Virus record (IMG/VR): IMGVR_UViG_3300031720_000003
Span: 1-63,823 of that record
DNA from: a virus
Taxonomy: Duplodnaviria; Caudoviricetes
Reading direction: 5' to 3' (one strand)
DNA length: 63,823 nt
The position numbers were made by a program, and so were the translations under genes. Each line of letters opens with the position of its first letter. Within the stretch, counting starts at the first letter, position 1. The notes under the pieces were generated by a model, which had not been told where the DNA came from, did no database searches, and saw only the letters and a program-made list of their open reading frames with translations. This document shows positions 3,498 through 18,758 of this stretch, one piece after another.

Positions 3498-4634
3498 ATG
3501 CCGGGGAGGCGAGCCACCGGGGAGGGTTCCATCGTCCGCTACCGCGGGCGCTGGCGGGTCAGGGTGCGCTGGCGCGGCCGGGAGCAGACCTGGTTCCGGC
3601 CCACCCATGTCGAGGCGGCGGCCAAGCTGCGCAGCGTGCTTGAGCAGCGGGCCAAGGGCGTGAGCATCAACGGTGGGCGCCTGCCGCTCTCCCAGTGGTG
3701 CGAGGAGTGGCTGGCCCAGAGCACGCTCACTGCCCCCCGCTCGCAGGCGTTCTACGCGGCCAAGCTCGCCTACATCCTCCCCCAGCTAGGAGGCATCAGC
3801 CTCGACGAGCTGGAGCCCGCCGAGATCCGCCGCGCCCTCGCCGCGGTGGGCACACGCCACTCGCCGACCACCGTGCAGCACGTCTACCGCAGCCTCTCCA
3901 CCTGCCTCAACGCCGCGGTCAGGGAGCGACGGATCACCCGCAACCCGGCCGGTGACGTGCAAGCCCCGCAGCGCTCGGGATTCGTGGCCCAGACCCTCAC
4001 CGTGGAACAGGCCCAACGTTTGCTCGAGGTCAGCCGCGACTCGTGGATGGGGGCGCTGATCCATCTCGCCATCGCCACCGGGATGCGGCAGGGAGAACTC
4101 TTCGCGCTGACCTGGGACGACCTCGACCTCAGCGAGCGCCGTTTGAGCGTGACCAAGAGCCTCTCGCGCCAGAAGCACGCGGGCCCGACCAAGACCGCCG
4201 CCGGCCATCGCCAGCTCACCCTCGGTGCCTCGGTGGTCGCCAGCCTGCAGCACCAGCGCGCCCGGGTGGCGCAGATGCGGCTCGAGGCCCGCGACTGGAA
4301 GGACCGCAACCTCATCTTCCCCACCGTCACGGGTGGGTACCGGGCACCCTCGGGTTCCTTCTTTCGCGAGTTCCGGTCATTCCTGACCGAAGCTGAGTGC
4401 CCGCACATCCGCTTCCACGATCTGCGCCACACCGCGGGACTCTTTCTGACCCGCAGCGCGGGCTTGGTGGTGGCGTCGCGCATCCTCGGACACGCCTCAC
4501 CGACCATTACCGCGTCGTTGTACGGAGCTGCGCAACGCGATGACTTTTTGGCCGCGGCACGCTCCATGGACGAGTTGCTGATGACCCCTTCCCAGTCCCC
4601 CCCGGAGGTGCTACAGTCCCCCTCGCTCGGCTGA
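3498..4634 (+). CDS. int: tyrosine integrase
   Basis: GEGSI N-terminus; TGMRQGELFALTWDD; FHDLRHT; ILGHAS...LY catalytic motifs. Confidence 0.95.
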   Translation: MPGRRATGEGSIVRYRGRWRVRVRWRGREQTWFRPTHVEAAAKLRSVLEQRAKGVSINGGRLPLSQWCEEWLAQSTLTAPRSQAFYAAKLAYILPQLGGISLDELEPAEIRRALAAVGTRHSPTTVQHVYRSLSTCLNAAVRERRITRNPAGDVQAPQRSGFVAQTLTVEQAQRLLEVSRDSWMGALIHLAIATGMRQGELFALTWDDLDLSERRLSVTKSLSRQKHAGPTKTAAGHRQLTLGASVVASLQHQRARVAQMRLEARDWKDRNLIFPTVTGGYRAPSGSFFREFRSFLTEAECPHIRFHDLRHTAGLFLTRSAGLVVASRILGHASPTITASLYGAAQRDDFLAAARSMDELLMTPSQSPPEVLQSPSLG

Positions 4635-13057: not shown

Positions 13058-14302
13058 TCAGGCCCCCGGGGCGATCACGCGCCCGCTGAGCACTGTCTGG
13101 GTCGCGTATTCGACGCTGTAGTGGATGGTGTCGGTGATGGTCTTCTGCATGTTCAAACCCAGTCGTGGTTCGGTGGCGGTGAACACGTCATCAATGTCGA
13201 AGAGGGGGTTGTTGGGCGCGCTCACCGACAAGGTGTATGCAGAGGACAGCGACACGCCGAGGTTGAACTGCGCCTCCGACAATGCCTGTGCCGACGACGT
13301 GATCAGGCTGTCCATGATGAAGTTGGGCGCCCGCCCGATCCCCCCGCCCACAAACGTCGGTGAGGCGGAGTTGTTGTCGGCGGCTTCGGCCTGGATCGGG
13401 GTGTTGGTGCCGGTCAGGTTCTGCGCCCCGGTCGCGGCCACGAAGATGTCGTTCTTGACCCCGTCGCGGGTCATCGCCAAGGTCACCGCTGCGGGAGTGG
13501 TGAACGGTGTGCCCCCGATGGGATGCACGTAGGTGCCTTGCGCGGTCACCTCACCGGGATAGAAGTTCCACACCGGAGCCAGTGAGGAGAGTGATCCGCC
13601 CGCGGCTGAACCCGGAATGGGTTTGCCAGTGAGCACGCCGTTGACATCGAAGAAGAGCTGCTGACCGCCTGACTGGGCCATGTCCAAGCACGCCTGCCAG
13701 GGATCCTGTCCCTGGTTGTACGTGCCCGCCGGCACCACGTACGACGAGCCGCCCTGAAAGTTGGGATTGGTGATCCAGGGTGGCACGGGAATGCCCACCG
13801 AGCCCGGCCCGTTGTTGTTCCAGATGTAGCTCAACAAGGCCACGACCTCATCCTCGAGCACCCCACCCGCTGCGGGAACCGTGTAGTTCTGCAGCAGTTG
13901 CCACTGCGAGAAGGGCCAGCTGCGGTCGAACAACTGCAGCGTGCAGGTGAGGTTGTTGCCCGTTGAGGCGGTCGTGGTCGTTGCAATCGCGTACACACCC
14001 AGAGGTGCCCAGCCGTTGGCTCCGATCTGTCCCGTCTGGATGTCCGGGGCCAGCACGGTCATGGCCACCGACACCTCCGTACCGAAGGGGGCAAGGGGCG
14101 AGGTGGGATCCAGCGGCAAATACGGCACCTGCTGTCCCGACCACAACACCGTCTGCGGTGGGATGGAAGGGACGATCTCGACGGTCAGCTCGCCCTGCCG
14201 GCGCTGTGCGCTGTTGCGATCGACGGTGAAGTCAGCCTCAGAGACAGGCAGGTAGATGCTGGTGCTCTGTCCGCTGTTCATGACGTTCAACTGGCACGCC
14301 AT
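13058..14302 (-). CDS. minor tail protein (DUF5047-like hub)
   Basis: VDRNSAQRRQGELTV, PLAPFGTEV, DPWQAC...LFFDVNG. Confidence 0.75.
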   Translation of the reverse strand: MACQLNVMNSGQSTSIYLPVSEADFTVDRNSAQRRQGELTVEIVPSIPPQTVLWSGQQVPYLPLDPTSPLAPFGTEVSVAMTVLAPDIQTGQIGANGWAPLGVYAIATTTTASTGNNLTCTLQLFDRSWPFSQWQLLQNYTVPAAGGVLEDEVVALLSYIWNNNGPGSVGIPVPPWITNPNFQGGSSYVVPAGTYNQGQDPWQACLDMAQSGGQQLFFDVNGVLTGKPIPGSAAGGSLSSLAPVWNFYPGEVTAQGTYVHPIGGTPFTTPAAVTLAMTRDGVKNDIFVAATGAQNLTGTNTPIQAEAADNNSASPTFVGGGIGRAPNFIMDSLITSSAQALSEAQFNLGVSLSSAYTLSVSAPNNPLFDIDDVFTATEPRLGLNMQKTITDTIHYSVEYATQTVLSGRVIAPGA

Positions 14303-14400
14303 GATCGCGCTGCCCCAGCGCAGCGCGTCTATAAATCCCGAGGCTGCCGACCAGATGGCGCAAATCCCTCCCGTTCGAGAGCGCTATCGGTCGCAATGTG

Positions 14401-14437
14401 TAGACCGCTTGCGTTCTGTTGTCCCGCTCTCTACAAT
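14401..14437 (+). promoter_or_regulatory. sigma70-type promoter of the RAMP-like cassette, with operator-like site
   Basis: TTGCGT(14409)-N17-TACAAT(14432); 14401-14417 matches the 3184-3200 site at 16/17 positions. Confidence 0.75.
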
Positions 14438-14504
14438 GCGAAGCCCCTGGAGCGGTTGGGCTCCGAGGGGCTTCTAACCACCAACCTGTGTGGAGGTCAA
14501 TGGC

Positions 14505-15152
14505 GTGGCTATTAATGGTACGGCGACTGCTGTCAGGCCAACAGAAGAGCGCACTTTCGTGGAAGCAGCCCTCACGCTGGAGCCGCTACAGATCAGTTCC
14601 GTGGACATTCGCGTCGAGGGGCTGTCCCCGCTGAGCACACATCGCTGGTCGGAGAAGGCCAAACGGATGATGCTCGAGGCGCAGAGCGGCAAGGCACGCA
14701 AGCGCAAGGAGCCGAAGGATCCCGACGCGGACTACAACGACGCGCGCTACCGAATTGACGCTAAGCGCGACGGCATCCCCGCGATCTGTTTCAAGGCCGC
14801 GATCGTCGGCGCGGCTCGTCACTTCGAAGGCATCCCCATGACCGTTCTCAAGACCGCAATCTTCGTTGAGGGCATCGGCAAGGAGCAACTCATCCCAATC
14901 GAGGGCAAGCCCGAGAAGTGGGAGGCGACGGTGCGCATCGCCATGGGCACTGCCGACCTGCGCTATCGTCCACTGTACTGGCCATGGTCTGCGGTGCTGC
15001 CGGTGCGCTTCGTGGCGTCGACCATCTCGCTTGACGCTGTCTACGCTTTGGTCGATGCTGCCGGCTTGGGTGGCGTCGGTGAGTGGCGTCCCAGCGCACC
15101 AAAGTCGCTCACAGGCTCCTACGGTCGATTCAAGGTTTCAGTGGAGGCTTAG
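14505..15152 (+). CDS. RAMP/Cas7-like RNA-binding protein
   Basis: IRVEGLSPL first strand, IPAICFKAAI helix, and C-terminal Gly-rich loop GLGGVGEWRP...GSYGRFKV follow the RAMP layout; GGAGG before GTG at 14505 (ORF open from 14490). Confidence 0.65.
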   Translation: MAINGTATAVRPTEERTFVEAALTLEPLQISSVDIRVEGLSPLSTHRWSEKAKRMMLEAQSGKARKRKEPKDPDADYNDARYRIDAKRDGIPAICFKAAIVGAARHFEGIPMTVLKTAIFVEGIGKEQLIPIEGKPEKWEATVRIAMGTADLRYRPLYWPWSAVLPVRFVASTISLDAVYALVDAAGLGGVGEWRPSAPKSLTGSYGRFKVSVEA

Positions 15153-15154
15153 CC

Positions 15155-15616
15155 ATGGCACTCGCCACCGCTCCGACGCTGGTTTACGAAGGACTGCCCG
15201 ACGCTGCGCTACGCGAGTTGGAGCAGCTCCATGAGCAGGATGGGGCGCTTCGACCTGAACGTGTTATCGAAGTCGCGGCTGATGCCGATAGCCCTCTGCA
15301 CAGCTACTTCGAGTGGGATGACACCGAGGCGGCTCGGCAGCACCGCATCGCACAGGCACGTCAGGTGATCCGGTCGGTCAAGGTCTATGTCAGCGATCGC
15401 CCTGCTGTGCAAGTGCGTGCCTACGTGTCCATGGGCGTTGAGCACGGACGGGCGTATCAGCGCACCAGCCAGGTCGTGAACAATGAGTTCACTCTGAACG
15501 AACTGCGGCGATCACTCGGTCGTGATCTCCAGCGGATCCAGCGGAAGCTACAGCTCATTGATGAATTCGCCGAAGCCGCAGCGGGACTCAACGGCGTTAT
15601 TGCCATGTTGTCCTAG
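15155..15616 (+). CDS. conserved phage protein, partner of the RAMP-like gene
   Basis: LRPERVIEVAADADSPLHSYFEWDDTEAARQHRIAQARQVIRSV...VRAYVS; GGAGG RBS. Confidence 0.75.
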   Translation: MALATAPTLVYEGLPDAALRELEQLHEQDGALRPERVIEVAADADSPLHSYFEWDDTEAARQHRIAQARQVIRSVKVYVSDRPAVQVRAYVSMGVEHGRAYQRTSQVVNNEFTLNELRRSLGRDLQRIQRKLQLIDEFAEAAAGLNGVIAMLS

Positions 15617-15617
15617 G

Positions 15618-16083
15618 GGCAGCAATGGCGCGCACAGGCGAGCACTGAAGGGGACAGCCCTGCGGTGGAATGGTCAGTCTTGGAACGGCACGGCAGCATT
15701 GGAATGGCAGTAACGGCTAGCTTGGCCCGGCACCGCACTGCAGCGCACCACTGCGCAACGACACGGAATGGCAGTAATGGCGTGGCGAGCAAGGCACCGG
15801 ATTGGCAGCATGGCAGCGGTGCGTCCTGCGTGGGTCGGTCAAGCAAGGCATGGCAGGGCACAGGTACGCATGGGATTGCAGTGGCAGTGGTGGATAGCCA
15901 CGCGAGGGACGGCAATGTTAAGCAAGGCATTGGCAGCAGTGGACAGGCGAGCCCTGGGCTGCCGGGCACAGGCAGGCTACGGTATGCAGCGCGACGGCAC
16001 GGTTTGGAATGGCAGTAGAGGCTGGCGTCGGAGTGCGACGCACTGGCGGGCGTTGGACAGGCTCGCAATGTAGCGCAGAGGCA
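15618..16083 (+). ncRNA. 5-nt-periodic G[G/C]NNN array, 8 units delimited by GGCA; candidate guide-RNA array
   Basis: 85 of 86 pentamers start with G; GGCA tetramers at 15618, 15692, 15706, 15770, 15804, 15883, 15932, 16011 and 16080. Confidence 0.75.
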
Positions 16084-16094
16084 GGCTAACCGTG

Positions 16095-16127
16095 CTCAGG
16101 ACGGCGGCGATGTGTCGTCGTCCTGAG
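16095..16127 (+). terminator. hairpin closing the array
   Basis: CTCAGGACGGCGGC-GATGT-GTCGTCGTCCTGAG, a 14-bp stem with G-U pairs and no U tract. Confidence 0.6.
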
Positions 16128-16250
16128 TCTCATCCTCGGGGTGCAGCAGTTCACGAGCGGCATCAAGCAACCACTGCGGTGTCCGATCCGATCGCAGAAT
16201 CGTCTCGCGACCGTGCAGAACAACGACCGGAGCGGGATCCATGCTGTGCC

Positions 16251-18758
16251 TCACACCGCTGGACGCGGGGTGGCAATGCCACTCACTCGCATGACCCGAT
16301 GCGGACCCGACGACGTGCTCGGCTGCAACTGTGTGTTGTGTGCTGGGGCGCTGCCCATGCCACCGGGGGTTTGCGCGAGCCGATAGTAGGGTGAGAGGTT
16401 GACGCCGCCGAACGGATCAGACACGAACACACTTTGCTGCGACGTACAGAGCGCCACCATGCCGCTGTACTGCGCAGCCGTGAACAACTCCAGCGTTGCG
16501 GCCATGTCCGGCCGCTGCACGGCGTACGCCATGATCGCTGCGGTCTGTTGCCCGAGCACTTGATGCGCTTGCGCCTGCTCGCTGACCGAGGGGTTCCAAT
16601 CAACAGCGTTAGCGAGCGTCGCAGTAGTCGGGTTGGTCGGGTTGAACCACCACCACCCTTGTCCTGCCGCAATGGTTTGTGCTGACGACGTTGCCGTGGG
16701 GCTTGAGATGGTCGACGCGCCCACCACCGCGGAAATAGTCGCGGTGTACGAATACGCCACCGTGGGCACGCACTCCGGGTCGTACACCACGACCGACTGG
16801 GTGCCGACTGGAATGCTGGTCGGATTCGTCGTGCTGGCTAGGCGCACGTAGACGCCGTCACTGCGCAGGATGGACAGGGTTGTGCTGCCCACCAGTCCAC
16901 CGCGCGCCCATGTTGACACCGTGCCGGGGAACAGGCCCATCTCCACCACGAAATGGTTCTCACCAGCTGAGGACACGGTGAGCACGATGGCGGCGAAGGC
17001 AGCATTGGCCGGTGCCGCTGCAGTGATGGACGCTTGGGTCCACGCAGAGGACACATCGCTCACCGCCGAGGAGGTGGAGGTGGAGAGCAGCGTGCCCGAG
17101 CTGTTGTACCAAGCGATGCCCACCGTGGCGTTGCGCGCCGTCGACGCCGAGCGGAACGAGGCCAATCCGCTGTACGTCTGTCCCACCGTGACCGCGATGC
17201 CCGATGTTCCTGTCGGCGTGGTGGCTGAGAGCGTGCCCGAGCCCGCCATCTGCAGGCTGTACGTGCCTTCTGCGGTCGGTGGGGTGGGGCTCGTGGCTGC
17301 GGAGAGAGTCGTGCCCCCGCCCGCCGTCCAGCCTGTGGTGTTGCCGTTCACCAGCGCTGCTTGATTCGTGGTCAGGTAGTTGTCAAACGCGTTGACGGTG
17401 AGCACGACACAGGGCAGCGAGGTGCCCGGATACGTGCCCAATGAGGAGACGATGGTGGGGGTGTTCGGTGAGTCCAGCTGCACCGTGTAGCCGGTGGACA
17501 CCCACGCTGAGGTTTGACCACCCGGGCTCTGGGTGATCTGCACGTAGGAGGCCACGGTGGTGTTGTTGGGGAGCGTGTTGACCACCGTGTACGAGGACGC
17601 GAGCGGATCGCTGACCACGCCGGAGTCGTCCAGTGAGGGGCCCGAGCCGGGGGTGAAGCCGGGGGCGCCGTACTGCGCTGCCGAGTAGGTGACCACGCGA
17701 TACGCGCTCTGGGTAGCACCGGAGGCCAGCGAATCGGACCACGTCACTGACGGTGTCTGCGTGGTGGTGAGCGTGCCGGTGGGGCCGGTGACGGTGACCG
17801 AGGGGCCGACCTGTGCGGTGACCGTGAAGTCGGATGCGTACGGGCCCGTGCCGGAAGAGTCAACGGACGCGACCGACCAGTTGTAGACGTTGCCGTCCGT
17901 CCACACCCCGCCGGCGAAGGTGATGCTCTGGGCGGTCGAGGTGTTCGCGATGTCCGTGCCCTGAAAGGCCGACCCTCCCGCGTTCCAGTAGTTGTACGAA
18001 CCGCCCGAGATCTTCTGGCGGAAGTGGTAGCCGGTCTCTCCTCCGGTGGCGCTGCCTTTGTAAACCCAGGTGAAGGGGCCGCCGTTGGTTTGCAGATCGC
18101 TATAGACCGCGTTGCTGGGAGCCGTGAGTGAGGGTGCAGGCGGAGCAGGGGGGATGAGCGCAACGGTGAGTGACGACCACTCCACGAGCTGGCTTGAGGT
18201 GGCGCTGCCCGGTGCCGACGACCCCGGCGATCCGGGTCCGGTGTAGTCGCCAGCGACGATGCCGACTGCTGTGGAGGTGACGTTGGCTCGAGCCGTGACA
18301 CCACCTGGGGCGGTGAAGGTGACGCCGTTGAAATAGGTGCCGGCCCAGAACACCACCACCTTCTCGCTGGCCTGGGTGGTGGTCACCGAAGCGGCCGCGA
18401 AGCTAGTGGCTCCCGAGCCGTTCGCCGACTGCCGTTGCGCTTGCACGTCGATCTGCGCCCCGGTGTAGTCGAGGATCGCCGCAGCGAGGTTCTGGTTGCC
18501 GACGTTGGTGGTAAACGTGTACGAACTGGGTTCGCTCGAGCCCGCGCTCTTCTGATACAGCGCAGCCGCCCCGGCCGTGTTGCTCATCAGCGTGCCCAGC
18601 GCGCTCCACCCAGTCGGGGCTGAGTAGGTCGCGGGATCGTCGCCGCCGATAACCATGGCCAGCAGCAAATCGCCCGAGGCAGCTCCGGCAGGTTTGTTCA
18701 CGGTCACCGAACTGCCGAGGTTGTTCCCCGTGCTCGATGAGCGGAAGGTGACCGCCAT
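16251..18758 (-). CDS. large minor tail protein (FnIII/CBM-like domains; distal-tail-like)
   Basis: 835 aa, S/T-rich; YNWSVASVD FnIII-like segment; CBM4/9-like VTVGQTY...IAWYNSSG...APANAAFA. Confidence 0.75.
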   Translation of the reverse strand: MAVTFRSSSTGNNLGSSVTVNKPAGAASGDLLLAMVIGGDDPATYSAPTGWSALGTLMSNTAGAAALYQKSAGSSEPSSYTFTTNVGNQNLAAAILDYTGAQIDVQAQRQSANGSGATSFAAASVTTTQASEKVVVFWAGTYFNGVTFTAPGGVTARANVTSTAVGIVAGDYTGPGSPGSSAPGSATSSQLVEWSSLTVALIPPAPPAPSLTAPSNAVYSDLQTNGGPFTWVYKGSATGGETGYHFRQKISGGSYNYWNAGGSAFQGTDIANTSTAQSITFAGGVWTDGNVYNWSVASVDSSGTGPYASDFTVTAQVGPSVTVTGPTGTLTTTQTPSVTWSDSLASGATQSAYRVVTYSAAQYGAPGFTPGSGPSLDDSGVVSDPLASSYTVVNTLPNNTTVASYVQITQSPGGQTSAWVSTGYTVQLDSPNTPTIVSSLGTYPGTSLPCVVLTVNAFDNYLTTNQAALVNGNTTGWTAGGGTTLSAATSPTPPTAEGTYSLQMAGSGTLSATTPTGTSGIAVTVGQTYSGLASFRSASTARNATVGIAWYNSSGTLLSTSTSSAVSDVSSAWTQASITAAAPANAAFAAIVLTVSSAGENHFVVEMGLFPGTVSTWARGGLVGSTTLSILRSDGVYVRLASTTNPTSIPVGTQSVVVYDPECVPTVAYSYTATISAVVGASTISSPTATSSAQTIAAGQGWWWFNPTNPTTATLANAVDWNPSVSEQAQAHQVLGQQTAAIMAYAVQRPDMAATLELFTAAQYSGMVALCTSQQSVFVSDPFGGVNLSPYYRLAQTPGGMGSAPAHNTQLQPSTSSGPHRVMRVSGIATPRPAV

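What the first reader, a model, noticed from the sequence alone, without database searches (positions are those of the whole stretch)
15618..16083. Internal grammar of the array: pentamer runs punctuated by 4-nt GGCA phase slips
Hand parsing gives GGCA followed by n pentamers, with n = 14, 2, 12, 6, 15, 9, 15 and 13 (units start at 15618, 15692, 15706, 15770, 15804, 15883, 15932 and 16011; final GGCA at 16080). 85 of 86 pentamers begin with G and 75 of 86 have G or C at position 2, while positions 3-5 vary. The junction GGAATGGCAGT recurs at 15701, 15765 and 16006. A period of 5 cannot come from codon bias, and the units are not copies of each other as a satellite would be. Inference: GGCAG marks processing boundaries for guides of about 14-79 nt.
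Basis: seen in the sequence. Interest (0 to 1): 0.9.

Follow-up and report, generated by a model that had tools for sequence, protein, structure and literature searches.

The report
Phage VIPR guide-RNA array, staggered type
The five-base rhythm is real and marks a guide-RNA array of a VIPR system, a phage weapon against rival mobile elements first described in 2026 preprints, so this is a new example of a known kind.

Summary
The 466-nt stretch has a period-5 G signal (z = 15 against dinucleotide shuffles).

It is the vrRNA array of a VIPR (Viral Interference Programmable Repeat) locus: vipr (14490-15152), a vap-like accessory gene (15155-15616), and a "staggered" array (15618-16089).
- A profile of the 220-aa protein hits the solved SUSP1 Vipr chain (E 5e-12).
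- It folds like Cas7/Csm3 RAMPs.
- In 62 of 63 related viral loci a period-5 G array lies beside the gene on its strand.
- Across 75 of 76 sources, 426 of 540 four-base units are GGCA. Run lengths peak at 8-13 pentamers.

Read by the published code (unit positions 4-5, one target base skipped), two guides decode in frame to conserved motifs:
- Guide 1 matches the HExxH motif of ImmA/IrrE peptidases.
- Guide 7 matches box II of tyrosine integrases, 27 of 30 bases on a metagenome contig.

The phage's own integrase matches only 13 of 30, by my codon-by-codon count on the output.

Processing at GGCA is not shown. An in-phase GGCAG lies inside guide 7. This is a new member of a known kind, with a relaxed repeat in which only the first G is conserved.

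The parts
14490..15152 (+). vipr gene (220 aa): the RAMP-fold protein that, in studied VIPR systems, polymerises on the pentamer repeats
   Evidence: Matches phrog_4652 at E 4.7e-35. A profile of 49 homologues hits PDB 36pp_D 'SUSP1 Vipr protein' at E 5.1e-12, with the G-loop GvGewRP aligned to GVGDWRP. The AF2 model has pLDDT 85.8. Best Foldseek hits are Csm3/Cas7 subunits of type III and VII CRISPR complexes, E from 2.2e-5, TM 0.37-0.48.
15155..15616 (+). vap-like accessory gene. The ORF listing gives 15083-15616 (177 aa). The ATG at 15155, just after the vipr stop, gives 153 aa.
   Evidence: Matches phrog_15946 at E 1.2e-23. Homologues lie on the vipr strand in 67 of 75 related loci. The AF2 model has pLDDT 91.8. 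Structural resemblance to winged-helix DNA binders such as RepE54 is only weak: E 0.037, TM about 0.3. No sequence relative among solved structures.
15618..16089 (+). staggered vrRNA array: about 95 units with G at position 1 in 97%, broken by nine GGCA four-base units
   Evidence: It starts 2 nt after the vap stop codon.
15622..15691 (+). guide 1 (14 pentamers). Positions 4-5 decode to an I/M-A-H-E-L-G-H-L-V-M-H-like motif.
   Evidence: The exact 8-unit seed found 90 places in IMG/VR. 78 lie in frame in ORFs of at least 100 aa that carry IAHELGHL. All 6 ORFs tested carry PF06114 Peptidase_M78 plus an HTH domain. The best full-length match is 24 of 28.
15696..15705 (+). run of 2 pentamers between two GGCA units, too short for a typical vrRNA
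15710..15769 (+). guide 3 (12 pentamers), target not found
   Evidence: The 8-unit seed gave 24 places. Full-length matches were 17-20 of 24, which is chance level.
15774..15803 (+). run of 6 pentamers, short
15808..15882 (+). guide 5 (15 pentamers), target not found
   Evidence: The seed of units 4-12 gave 0 places. The seed of units 1-8 gave 41 places, mostly one redundantly sampled giant gene, out of frame, at 21 of 30.
15887..15931 (+). guide 6 (9 pentamers), no convincing target
   Evidence: One 16 of 18 match in a non-coding stretch at L081:833, where the shuffle maximum is 14. It is probably chance.
15936..16010 (+). guide 7 (15 pentamers). It decodes to V-Q-E/D-L-L-G-H-S-T-I-A-T-T, which is box II of tyrosine recombinases.
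   Evidence: 27 of 30 on metagenome locus L101, with units 1-13 perfect, in frame in a 439-aa PF00589 ORF. 26 of 30 on L100. 24-25 of 30 on four IMG/VR integrase loci (L081, L082, L090, L093). Guides with shuffled unit order reach at most 20 of 30 on L101.
   Evidence: The 8-unit seed gave 4 places, none coding.
15692..15695 (+). GGCA four-base unit (phase slip). The others are at 15618, 15706, 15770, 15804, 15883, 15932, 16011 and 16080.
   Evidence: In the family-wide logo the unit is G 0.98, G 0.95, C 0.91, A 0.85, then G 0.99.
16094..16128 (+). 15-bp hairpin right after the array, a possible terminator between convergent transcription units
   Evidence: A fold of 16080-16150 gives -34 kcal/mol, z -2.5, with 3 of 200 shuffles as good. 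The consensus terminator scan found nothing because there is no T run.

Best explanation
The stretch is the guide-RNA (vrRNA) array of a VIPR system carried by a temperate soil phage.

Locus layout (shown). The cassette vipr - vap - array lies on the + strand, inside a minus-strand tail-gene block.

How it most likely works (inferred from the published SUSP1 and P. fulva systems):
- The array is transcribed with the two genes.
- One Vipr protomer binds each pentamer. It holds the first bases of the unit and presents positions 4-5.
- The row of dinucleotides pairs with double-stranded DNA while skipping every third target base.
- The filament then blocks transcription of the target gene.

What the guides aim at (shown by sequence matches). 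At least two guides match catalytic-motif coding regions of genes that rival temperate or integrative elements need:
- Guide 1 matches the HExxH motif of ImmA/IrrE-type HTH-peptidases, which belong to the lysis-lysogeny switch.
- Guide 7 matches box II of a tyrosine integrase.
The skipped base falls on the codon wobble position.

What the GGCA units do (inferred). Each is a pentamer that shares its last G with the next guide (1-nt overlap). This breaks the five-base register, so one Vipr filament ends where the next begins. I think the register break together with the conserved GGCA sets the guide ends. The enzyme that cuts, if any, is unknown.
For: 1. Protein. A profile of 49 homologues hits the solved SUSP1 Vipr chain (E 5.1e-12). 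Equivalents of its repeat-contact residues are R138 to R160, D177 to E198, W178 to W199 and R179 to R200 (residue roles from preprint 10.64898/2026.04.26.720927, Results read). The fold resembles Cas7/Csm3 RAMPs.

2. Linkage.
- In 62 of 63 IMG/VR loci that encode a homologue, the best period-5 window is for G on the gene's strand and lies close to the gene.
- All 11 genome loci and mycobacteriophage Saal show the same.
- The vap homologue is present in 67 of 75 loci.

3. Grammar.
- 426 of 540 four-base units are GGCA, against 1066 of 5802 (18%) ordinary units that begin with GGCA.
- Runs between them peak at 8-13 pentamers, mode 10.
- This fits the published 9-16 repeats and the 'staggered arrays' legend.

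4. Code.
- Among 435 unique family vrRNAs searched against 1.25 Mb of local sequence, guides of at least 10 units with 3 or fewer mismatches numbered 14 under the 1-nt skip. They numbered 5 (no skip), 2 (2-nt skip) and 4 (shuffled unit order).
- One L037 guide matches 20 of 22 in frame on the vipr genes of L032 and L042, over the peptide EDMVRIGMGT. Its own vipr matches only 15 of 22.

5. This window.
- Guide 7 matches 27 of 30, with 13 consecutive units perfect, in frame in a PF00589 integrase.
- Guide 1's seed hits 90 places, 78 of them in frame in long ORFs with the HExxH motif. Other 8-unit seeds gave 4-12 hits, or 24-41 hits that were mostly redundant copies of the same sequences and did not extend beyond the seed.

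6. No self-targeting. The best matches of the six long guides anywhere in the local set, window included, are at shuffle level: 19 of 28, 17 of 24, 20 of 30, 14 of 18, 19 of 30 and 20 of 30. The phage's own integrase matches guide 7 at 13 of 30, by my codon-by-codon count on the sequence printed.
Against: - Relaxed repeat. Only position 1 is conserved (G 97%). Position 2 is G in 42% and C in 46%. Position 3 is A in 48% and a pyrimidine in 42%. In the solved complex both G2 and Y3 are held by the protein.
- Missing targets. Four of the six long guides found no target. No full-length perfect target was found for any guide. Guide 7's full pattern with up to 3 mismatches was not found in the 401 genomes searched.
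- Short runs. Two runs (2 and 6 pentamers) are shorter than reported vrRNAs.
- Partial sequence match. The match to SUSP1 Vipr covers only the last 70 or so residues. The H17 equivalent (H51) is not within the aligned stretch.
- No RNA data. Transcription, processing, Vipr binding and silencing are all inferred.
- Type unknown. I could not tell which of the seven published VIPR types this is. The type tables and figures are supplements or images that I could not see.
Confidence: 0.9

Rival explanations
1. It is a decaying, no longer functional VIPR array. The GGY consensus has eroded and only remnants of the rhythm remain.
For: Positions 2 and 3 are far less conserved than in most relatives: G2 is 42% here against 59-98% in most loci, and position 3 is A in 48%. 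Two runs are very short. Four of the six long guides have no target.
Against: G1 is kept in 85 of 86 units, and all nine GGCA units are intact. vipr and vap are full-length open frames with the contact residues in place. Guide 7 keeps 13 consecutive perfect units against an integrase, and guide 1 keeps at least 8 in-frame units. Identical pieces of the array occur in a second soil metagenome. Other loci also have relaxed position 2 (L009, L010) or position 3 (L012).
Confidence: 0.06
2. It acts as double-stranded DNA: a row of protein-binding sites (centromere-like, iteron-like or packaging site) spaced at half a helical turn.
For: In some relatives the unit is close to GC-NNN, so it is also picked up on the opposite strand. 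The neighbouring accessory protein weakly resembles winged-helix DNA binders.
Against: The G-rich strand is the strand of vipr in all 62 of 63 loci that show a signal, whether the array lies upstream or downstream of the gene. The window's array is strongly asymmetric: G 184, C 116. The variable positions decode in frame to foreign genes, which a binding-site row would not do. The partner protein is a relative of a solved RNA-binding Vipr.
Confidence: 0.02
3. It is protein-coding. Open frames of 151 aa (minus strand) and 117 and 101 aa (plus strand) cross it.
For: the ORF listing finds these frames. In related records such stretches have been read as coding. The open frame upstream of vipr in L004 runs through its array and gives 463 aa. 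The annotated Saal gene 51 starts at locus position 2342, inside the called array 2107-2353.
Against: A period of 5 with -1 slips cannot be kept by any one reading frame. The three ORFs have no Pfam or PHROG family at E up to 1. The conserved feature across loci is the G rhythm and the GGCA unit, not any peptide.
Confidence: 0.01

Closest known systems
VIPR staggered vrRNA arrays (bioRxiv 10.64898/2026.04.26.720920, Results and the legend of fig. S18 read; figure not seen)
   Same: The locus has a Vipr homologue, an accessory gene and pentamer repeats on the same strand. Consecutive guides share one base: GGCA followed by G, a 1-nt overlap. There is no long tail and no ribozyme between guides.
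   Different: The preprint does not state the delimiter sequence in the text I could read, and it reports no small-RNA data for this architecture. In this window only G1 is conserved, whereas GGY is typical. Which of types I-VII this is could not be determined.
Type II VIPR of Escherichia phage SUSP1 and the Pseudomonas fulva prophage (same preprint; 10.64898/2026.04.26.720927; 10.64898/2026.10.15.759431)
   Same: The G-loop and thumb residues are conserved. The guide sits in positions 4-5 with a 1-nt skip aligned to the codon wobble. Targets include a recombinase catalytic region, lysogeny-switch genes and rival vipr genes (papers read).
   Different: In type II each vrRNA ends in an invariable tail with a pseudoknot, and the vrRNAs are separate units of about 100 nt. 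Here there is no tail, only a four-base unit. The sequence match covers only the C-terminal third of the protein. The host is probably an actinobacterium, judged from the nearest TerL and Vipr relatives.
Class 1 CRISPR backbone (Cas7/Csm3 filament on crRNA)
   Same: The protein has a RAMP fold. One protomer binds per fixed step of guide RNA, with bases periodically flipped out (recalled, and stated).
   Different: The step is 5 nt rather than 6. The guide is noncontiguous. There are no repeat-spacer units, and no cas1, cas2 or other cas genes in the three-part cassette. No PADLOC model matches either protein.

Membership tests
VIPR system | A Vipr protein: a small RAMP with an RRM core, a glycine-rich loop and a thumb | tested here: met
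   Profile hit to PDB 36pp_D SUSP1 Vipr, E 5.1e-12. AF2 pLDDT 85.8. Foldseek best hits are Csm3/Cas7 subunits, E from 2.2e-5.
VIPR system | Residues that hold the repeat bases: SUSP1 H17 and D177 for G1, R138 and W178 for G2, R179 for Y3 | tested here: inconclusive
   R160, E198 (for D), W199 and R200 align to R138, D177, W178 and R179. H51 is nearly invariant in the family, but the HMMER alignment does not reach it. This is sequence evidence only.
VIPR system | An array of pentanucleotide repeats (conserved GGY, variable NN) beside vipr on the same strand | tested here: met
   Period 5 at z = 15. The array starts 2 nt after the vap stop. The deviation is that G1 is 97%, G2 is 42% and Y3 is 42%. 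The preprint also allows related consensus forms (NNNGG, YNNNG, NNNNG).
VIPR system | 9-16 repeats per vrRNA | tested here: inconclusive
   The window's runs are 14, 2, 12, 6, 15, 9, 15 and 13, so 6 of 8 are in range. In the family the runs peak at 8-13.
VIPR system | Noncontiguous code: positions 4-5 pair with the target and one target base is skipped. Natural targets reach at least 80% NN match, mostly wobble-aligned in coding sequence. | tested here: met
   Guide 7 matches 27 of 30 (90%) in frame in an integrase. Guide 1 matches 24 of 28 (86%) in frame in an ImmA/IrrE-type gene. The family-level skip-rule comparison favours the 1-nt skip. Four other guides have no target found.
VIPR system | Guides spare the element that carries them | tested here: met
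   The best local matches of the six long guides, window included, are at shuffle level. The phage's own integrase matches 13 of 30, by my count on the output. No ImmA-like HExxH motif turned up in six-frame translations of the window.
VIPR system | A vap accessory gene next to vipr | tested here: met
   The 153/177-aa gene has homologues in 67 of 75 loci on the vipr strand. Which vap class (1-6) it belongs to could not be told. Its fold shows only weak winged-helix resemblance.
VIPR system | vrRNAs are expressed, processed and bound by Vipr, and the complex silences double-stranded DNA targets | not testable with these tools
   No RNA run holds the stretch. Contigs of two soil metagenomes show only that the DNA exists.
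VIPR staggered array architecture | Consecutive vrRNAs overlap by 1 nt, so the end of one marks the start of the next | tested here: met
   Nine GGCA units, each followed by the G that opens the next run. The same holds for 426 of 540 four-base units in 75 sources. The actual RNA ends are not known.
CRISPR array | Direct repeats of about 24-40 nt alternating with unique spacers, with cas1 and cas2 nearby | tested here: not met
   Tandem Repeats Finder finds no repeat of that kind. The neighbouring genes are vipr, vap and tail genes. No PADLOC hits.

The most novel reading that the evidence does not exclude
This is a relaxed-repeat VIPR variant. Only the first G of each pentamer is read by the protein. 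There is no tail or ribozyme, so a bare one-base register break (GGCA sharing its G with the next unit) ends each Vipr filament and sets the guide length. Its guides are aimed at family-wide catalytic motifs (HExxH of ImmA/IrrE, box II of tyrosine integrases) rather than at one rival. One phage could then silence the induction and integration genes of many unrelated temperate elements at once.
Probability: 0.3. Interest if true: 0.6.

Novelty: new member of a known kind. Interest (0 to 1): 0.4.

Why it matters
The finding is real, but the kind is already described.

What this locus and its 75 relatives add:
- A sequence-level description of the staggered array type: the GGCA delimiter, runs of about 8-13 units, and a weakly conserved last unit.
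- A case in which the repeat is relaxed to a single conserved G, yet the guides still read in frame.
- Guides aimed at two textbook catalytic motifs of mobile elements.
- Vipr homologues (53% identity) in 27 Mycobacterium and 5 Gordonia phage records in the phage collection, with a staggered array confirmed beside the gene in mycobacteriophage Saal. Because these phages are cultured, the untested processing step of staggered arrays could be examined at the bench.

I could not see the preprints' supplementary tables, so some of this may already be listed there.

Tried and rejected
Searches that found nothing:
- Rfam: only one weak, unrelated match outside the array.
- blastn of 15083-16260 against phage records: no match.
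- Pfam, PADLOC and NCBIfam on the two proteins: nothing usable.
- Consensus promoter and terminator scan: nothing.

Ideas dropped:
- Before the PDB hit I considered a TRAP-like or nucleocapsid-like RNA-binding filament with no guide role, G-quadruplexes, and a DNA-level site row. The VIPR match and the in-frame decoding replaced these.
- I looked for a link between the G-loop residue equivalent to SUSP1 C173 and the base at repeat position 3. None is visible. Many loci with the same glycine as the window have C at position 3.

Target searches that failed:
- Guide 5, two seeds.
- Guide 3.
- Guide 8.
- Guide 7's full pattern with up to 3 mismatches: none in 2 genomes, and none in the 401 genomes searched in the phylum of the genome holding L069. 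These are a sample, so this is 'not found in those searched'.
- The other guides do not match loci L081, L082, L090, L093, L100 or L101 above shuffle level, except guide 6 on L081.

RNA and sample data:
- No RNA holder is listed for the stretch.
- Laid contigs show only presence of the DNA in two soil metagenomes.

They may name the type, the delimiter and the actinophage members.

Full report
**1. The observation**

Region 15618-16083 is intergenic and G-rich on the + strand (G 184, C 116, A 101, T 65).
It gives 86 pentamers, 85 starting with G and 75 with C or G second.
- G autocorrelation peaks at every multiple of 5. The signal is 15 sd above 2000 dinucleotide-preserving shuffles.
- It is the only such place in the 63.8-kb window.
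- The 11-mer junction occurs three times, where 0.03 is expected.
- Tandem Repeats Finder reports no array, so the units are not copies of each other.

**2. The surroundings**

Two + strand genes lie directly upstream:
- 14490-15152 (220 aa, phrog_4652).
- 15083/15155-15616 (phrog_15946).

They are set against a minus-strand tail block. The window is a complete-looking temperate phage record, with an integrase at 3498-4634, a portal and TerL. It comes from a soil metagenome. Its nearest TerL relatives (about 40% identity) and Vipr relatives (53%) are actinobacteriophages. A 15-bp hairpin follows the array.

**3. Linkage to the 220-aa protein**

- A search of IMG/VR gave 63 loci with homologues at 29-54% identity.
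- In 62 of them the strongest period-5 window is for G on the gene's strand and lies close to the gene. The exception, L064, is cut off soon after the gene start.
- The array mostly starts 5-40 nt after the stop codon. In some loci it comes after an intervening gene of about 480 nt, as here, and in some it lies just upstream.
- All 11 genome loci (a Phycisphaerae MAG, gut Clostridia, Collinsella and others) and mycobacteriophage Saal show the same signal.
- The second gene has homologues in 67 of 75 loci.

**4. Identity**

A profile of 49 homologues hits one solved chain, 36pp_D 'SUSP1 Vipr protein', at E 5.1e-12. The glycine-rich loop and the thumb YR motif align. The AF2 model (pLDDT 85.8) resembles Csm3/Cas7 backbone subunits.

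Literature searches led to three bioRxiv preprints of 2026:
- 10.64898/2026.04.26.720920: Results, Discussion, the type-classification method and figure legends read.
- 10.64898/2026.04.26.720927: first part of Results read.
- 10.64898/2026.10.15.759431: abstract and passages read.

They describe the following:
- VIPR consists of a small ancestral RAMP (Vipr), an accessory vap gene and vrRNAs.
- A vrRNA has 9-16 pentamers with conserved GGY and variable NN.
- One protomer binds per repeat.
- The NN dinucleotides pair with double-stranded DNA while skipping every third base, usually the codon wobble.
- Targets are rival satellites, prophages and rival vipr genes.
- There are seven types. These include 'staggered arrays with overlapping vrRNAs', whose vrRNAs come from positions overlapping by 1 nt.
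- For the staggered type the preprint reports no small-RNA data. It says only the ribozyme-interspersed arrays and the single-vrRNA systems were confirmed by small-RNA sequencing.

**5. The grammar across the family**

I parsed the window plus 75 loci. 75 of the 76 sources have arrays of at least 15 units.
- Of 540 four-base units, 426 are GGCA. Only 1066 of 5802 ordinary units (18%) begin with GGCA.
- The base after the unit is G in 99%. So the slip is a GGCAG pentamer sharing its G with the next unit, which is the 1-nt overlap of the published legend.
- Runs between slips peak at 8-13 pentamers, mode 10.
- The unit before the slip tends to end in T and is poor in G.
- In the matches found, the last one or two units of a guide did not pair: units 14-15 of guide 7 and unit 11 of the L037 guide. 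The 3' end may therefore act as a handle. That is inference.

**6. Does the published code hold in this clade and in this window?**

*In the clade.* I searched 435 unique vrRNAs from all loci against 1.25 Mb of local sequence. The number of guides of at least 10 units with 3 or fewer mismatches was:

| Rule | Guides |
|---|---|
| 1-nt skip | 14 |
| No skip | 5 |
| 2-nt skip | 2 |
| Shuffled unit order (1-nt skip) | 4 |

The first guide of L037 matches 20 of 22 in frame on the vipr genes of L032 and L042, over the conserved peptide EDMVRIGMGT. A guide of L033 hits the same site at 16 of 18. The carriers' own vipr genes differ there, at 15 of 22 and 13 of 18.

*Guide 7 (15936-16010).* It decodes to the box II motif of tyrosine recombinases.
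- Two 8-unit seeds gave 23 exact IMG/VR places. Six are in frame in long ORFs, and all six are PF00589. Full-length matches there are 21-25 of 30. The other places score 18-23, near chance.
- An 11-unit seed in the metagenome collection gave two places, both PF00589. L101 (GC 0.64) matches 27 of 30 with units 1-13 perfect, and L100 matches 26 of 30.
- Guides with shuffled unit order reach at most 20 of 30 on L101.

*Guide 1 (15622-15691).* It decodes to I/M-A-H-E-L-G-H-L-V-M-H.
- Its 8-unit seed gave 90 places. 78 are in frame in ORFs of at least 100 aa.
- All six ORFs tested are HTH plus Peptidase_M78 (ImmA/IrrE) proteins.
- The best match is 24 of 28.

*Register.* These matches also fix the register. 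The invariant G lies three bases before the guide dinucleotide, so it is G1 of GGY.

*Self-targeting.* The window's own integrase matches guide 7 at only 13 of 30, by my codon-by-codon count on the sequence printed. No ImmA-like motif is encoded in the window.

*No target.* Guides 3, 5, 6 and 8 gave no convincing target.

**7. What is unusual here**

- Most relatives keep GGY. The window keeps only G1 (97%), with G or C at position 2 and A or C at position 3.
- L009 and L010 (pyrimidine at position 2) and L012 (A or C at position 3) are other relaxed cases.
- I found no protein residue that tracks this.
- Two runs are very short.
- GGCAG at 15971 is an in-phase unit inside guide 7, and the match continues past it. 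The boundary is therefore the register break plus GGCA, not the five letters alone.

**8. Mechanism**

*Shown:*
- The locus composition.
- The family-wide grammar.
- Homology to a solved Vipr.
- In-frame, wobble-skipping matches of two guides.

*Inferred from the published systems:*
- Transcription of the array with the genes.
- One Vipr protomer per pentamer.
- Binding of double-stranded DNA and silencing.

*My own inference:* the one-base overlap stops one filament and starts the next, taking the place of the tail or ribozyme of the other array types.

*Not known:* which enzyme cuts the RNA, and what vap does. Its model shows only weak winged-helix likeness.

**9. Verdict**

Processing remains unproven. 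The system is a member of the VIPR family described in 2026, so it is a new member of a known kind.

Noticed in passing
L037:4628 and L033:4664 against L032:4442 and L042:4439: Guides in two related phages match, in frame with the wobble base skipped, the most conserved part of the vipr genes of other phages (peptide EDMVRIGMGT): 20 of 22 and 16 of 18. The carriers' own vipr genes are changed at that site (15 of 22 and 13 of 18). This is anti-VIPR targeting within the staggered-array clade.
   Followed up: partly
L076 (Mycobacterium phage Saal, NC_023580.1) about 2107-2353; also L004:3215-4606: Cultured Cheoctovirus mycobacteriophages carry vipr (gene 51), a vap homologue (gene 52) and a clean GGC-NN staggered array just upstream. 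The annotated gene 51 starts inside the called array. In L004 the open frame upstream of vipr runs through the whole array (463 aa). Such arrays lack stop codons and can be mis-called as coding.
   Followed up: partly
L081:833-859: Guide 6 of the window matches 16 of 18 in a non-coding stretch about 190 nt downstream of the guide 7 site in the same IMG/VR contig (shuffle maximum 14). The contig has GC 0.47, unlike the window. It is probably chance, but two neighbouring guides hitting one locus is worth a look.
   Followed up: partly
L009, L010, L012 (arrays beside vipr): Other relaxed repeat forms occur. L009 and L010 have G, then a pyrimidine, then C (position 2 almost never G). L012 has G-G, then A or C in equal parts. 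The repeat consensus varies between close Vipr relatives with no obvious matching change in the G-loop.
   Followed up: partly
window 15508-15933: Contigs of a second soil metagenome run (X2) carry pieces identical to this part of the vap gene and array. The same phage, or a near-identical one, occurs in another sample.
   Followed up: no
window 14303-16250: The vipr-vap-array cassette is the only + strand block inside a minus-strand tail module. It lies between the tail protein gene 13058-14302 and the 835-aa gene 16251-18758. This looks like an inserted moron-style cassette with its own hairpin at 16094-16128.
   Followed up: partly
L196-L236: The guide 5 seed hit about two dozen IMG/VR contigs at the same out-of-frame site of one very large gene (ORFs up to about 3500 aa, peptide TRWAKSQLGGTLTEQ...). 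This is a redundantly sampled phage group, not a target.
   Followed up: no
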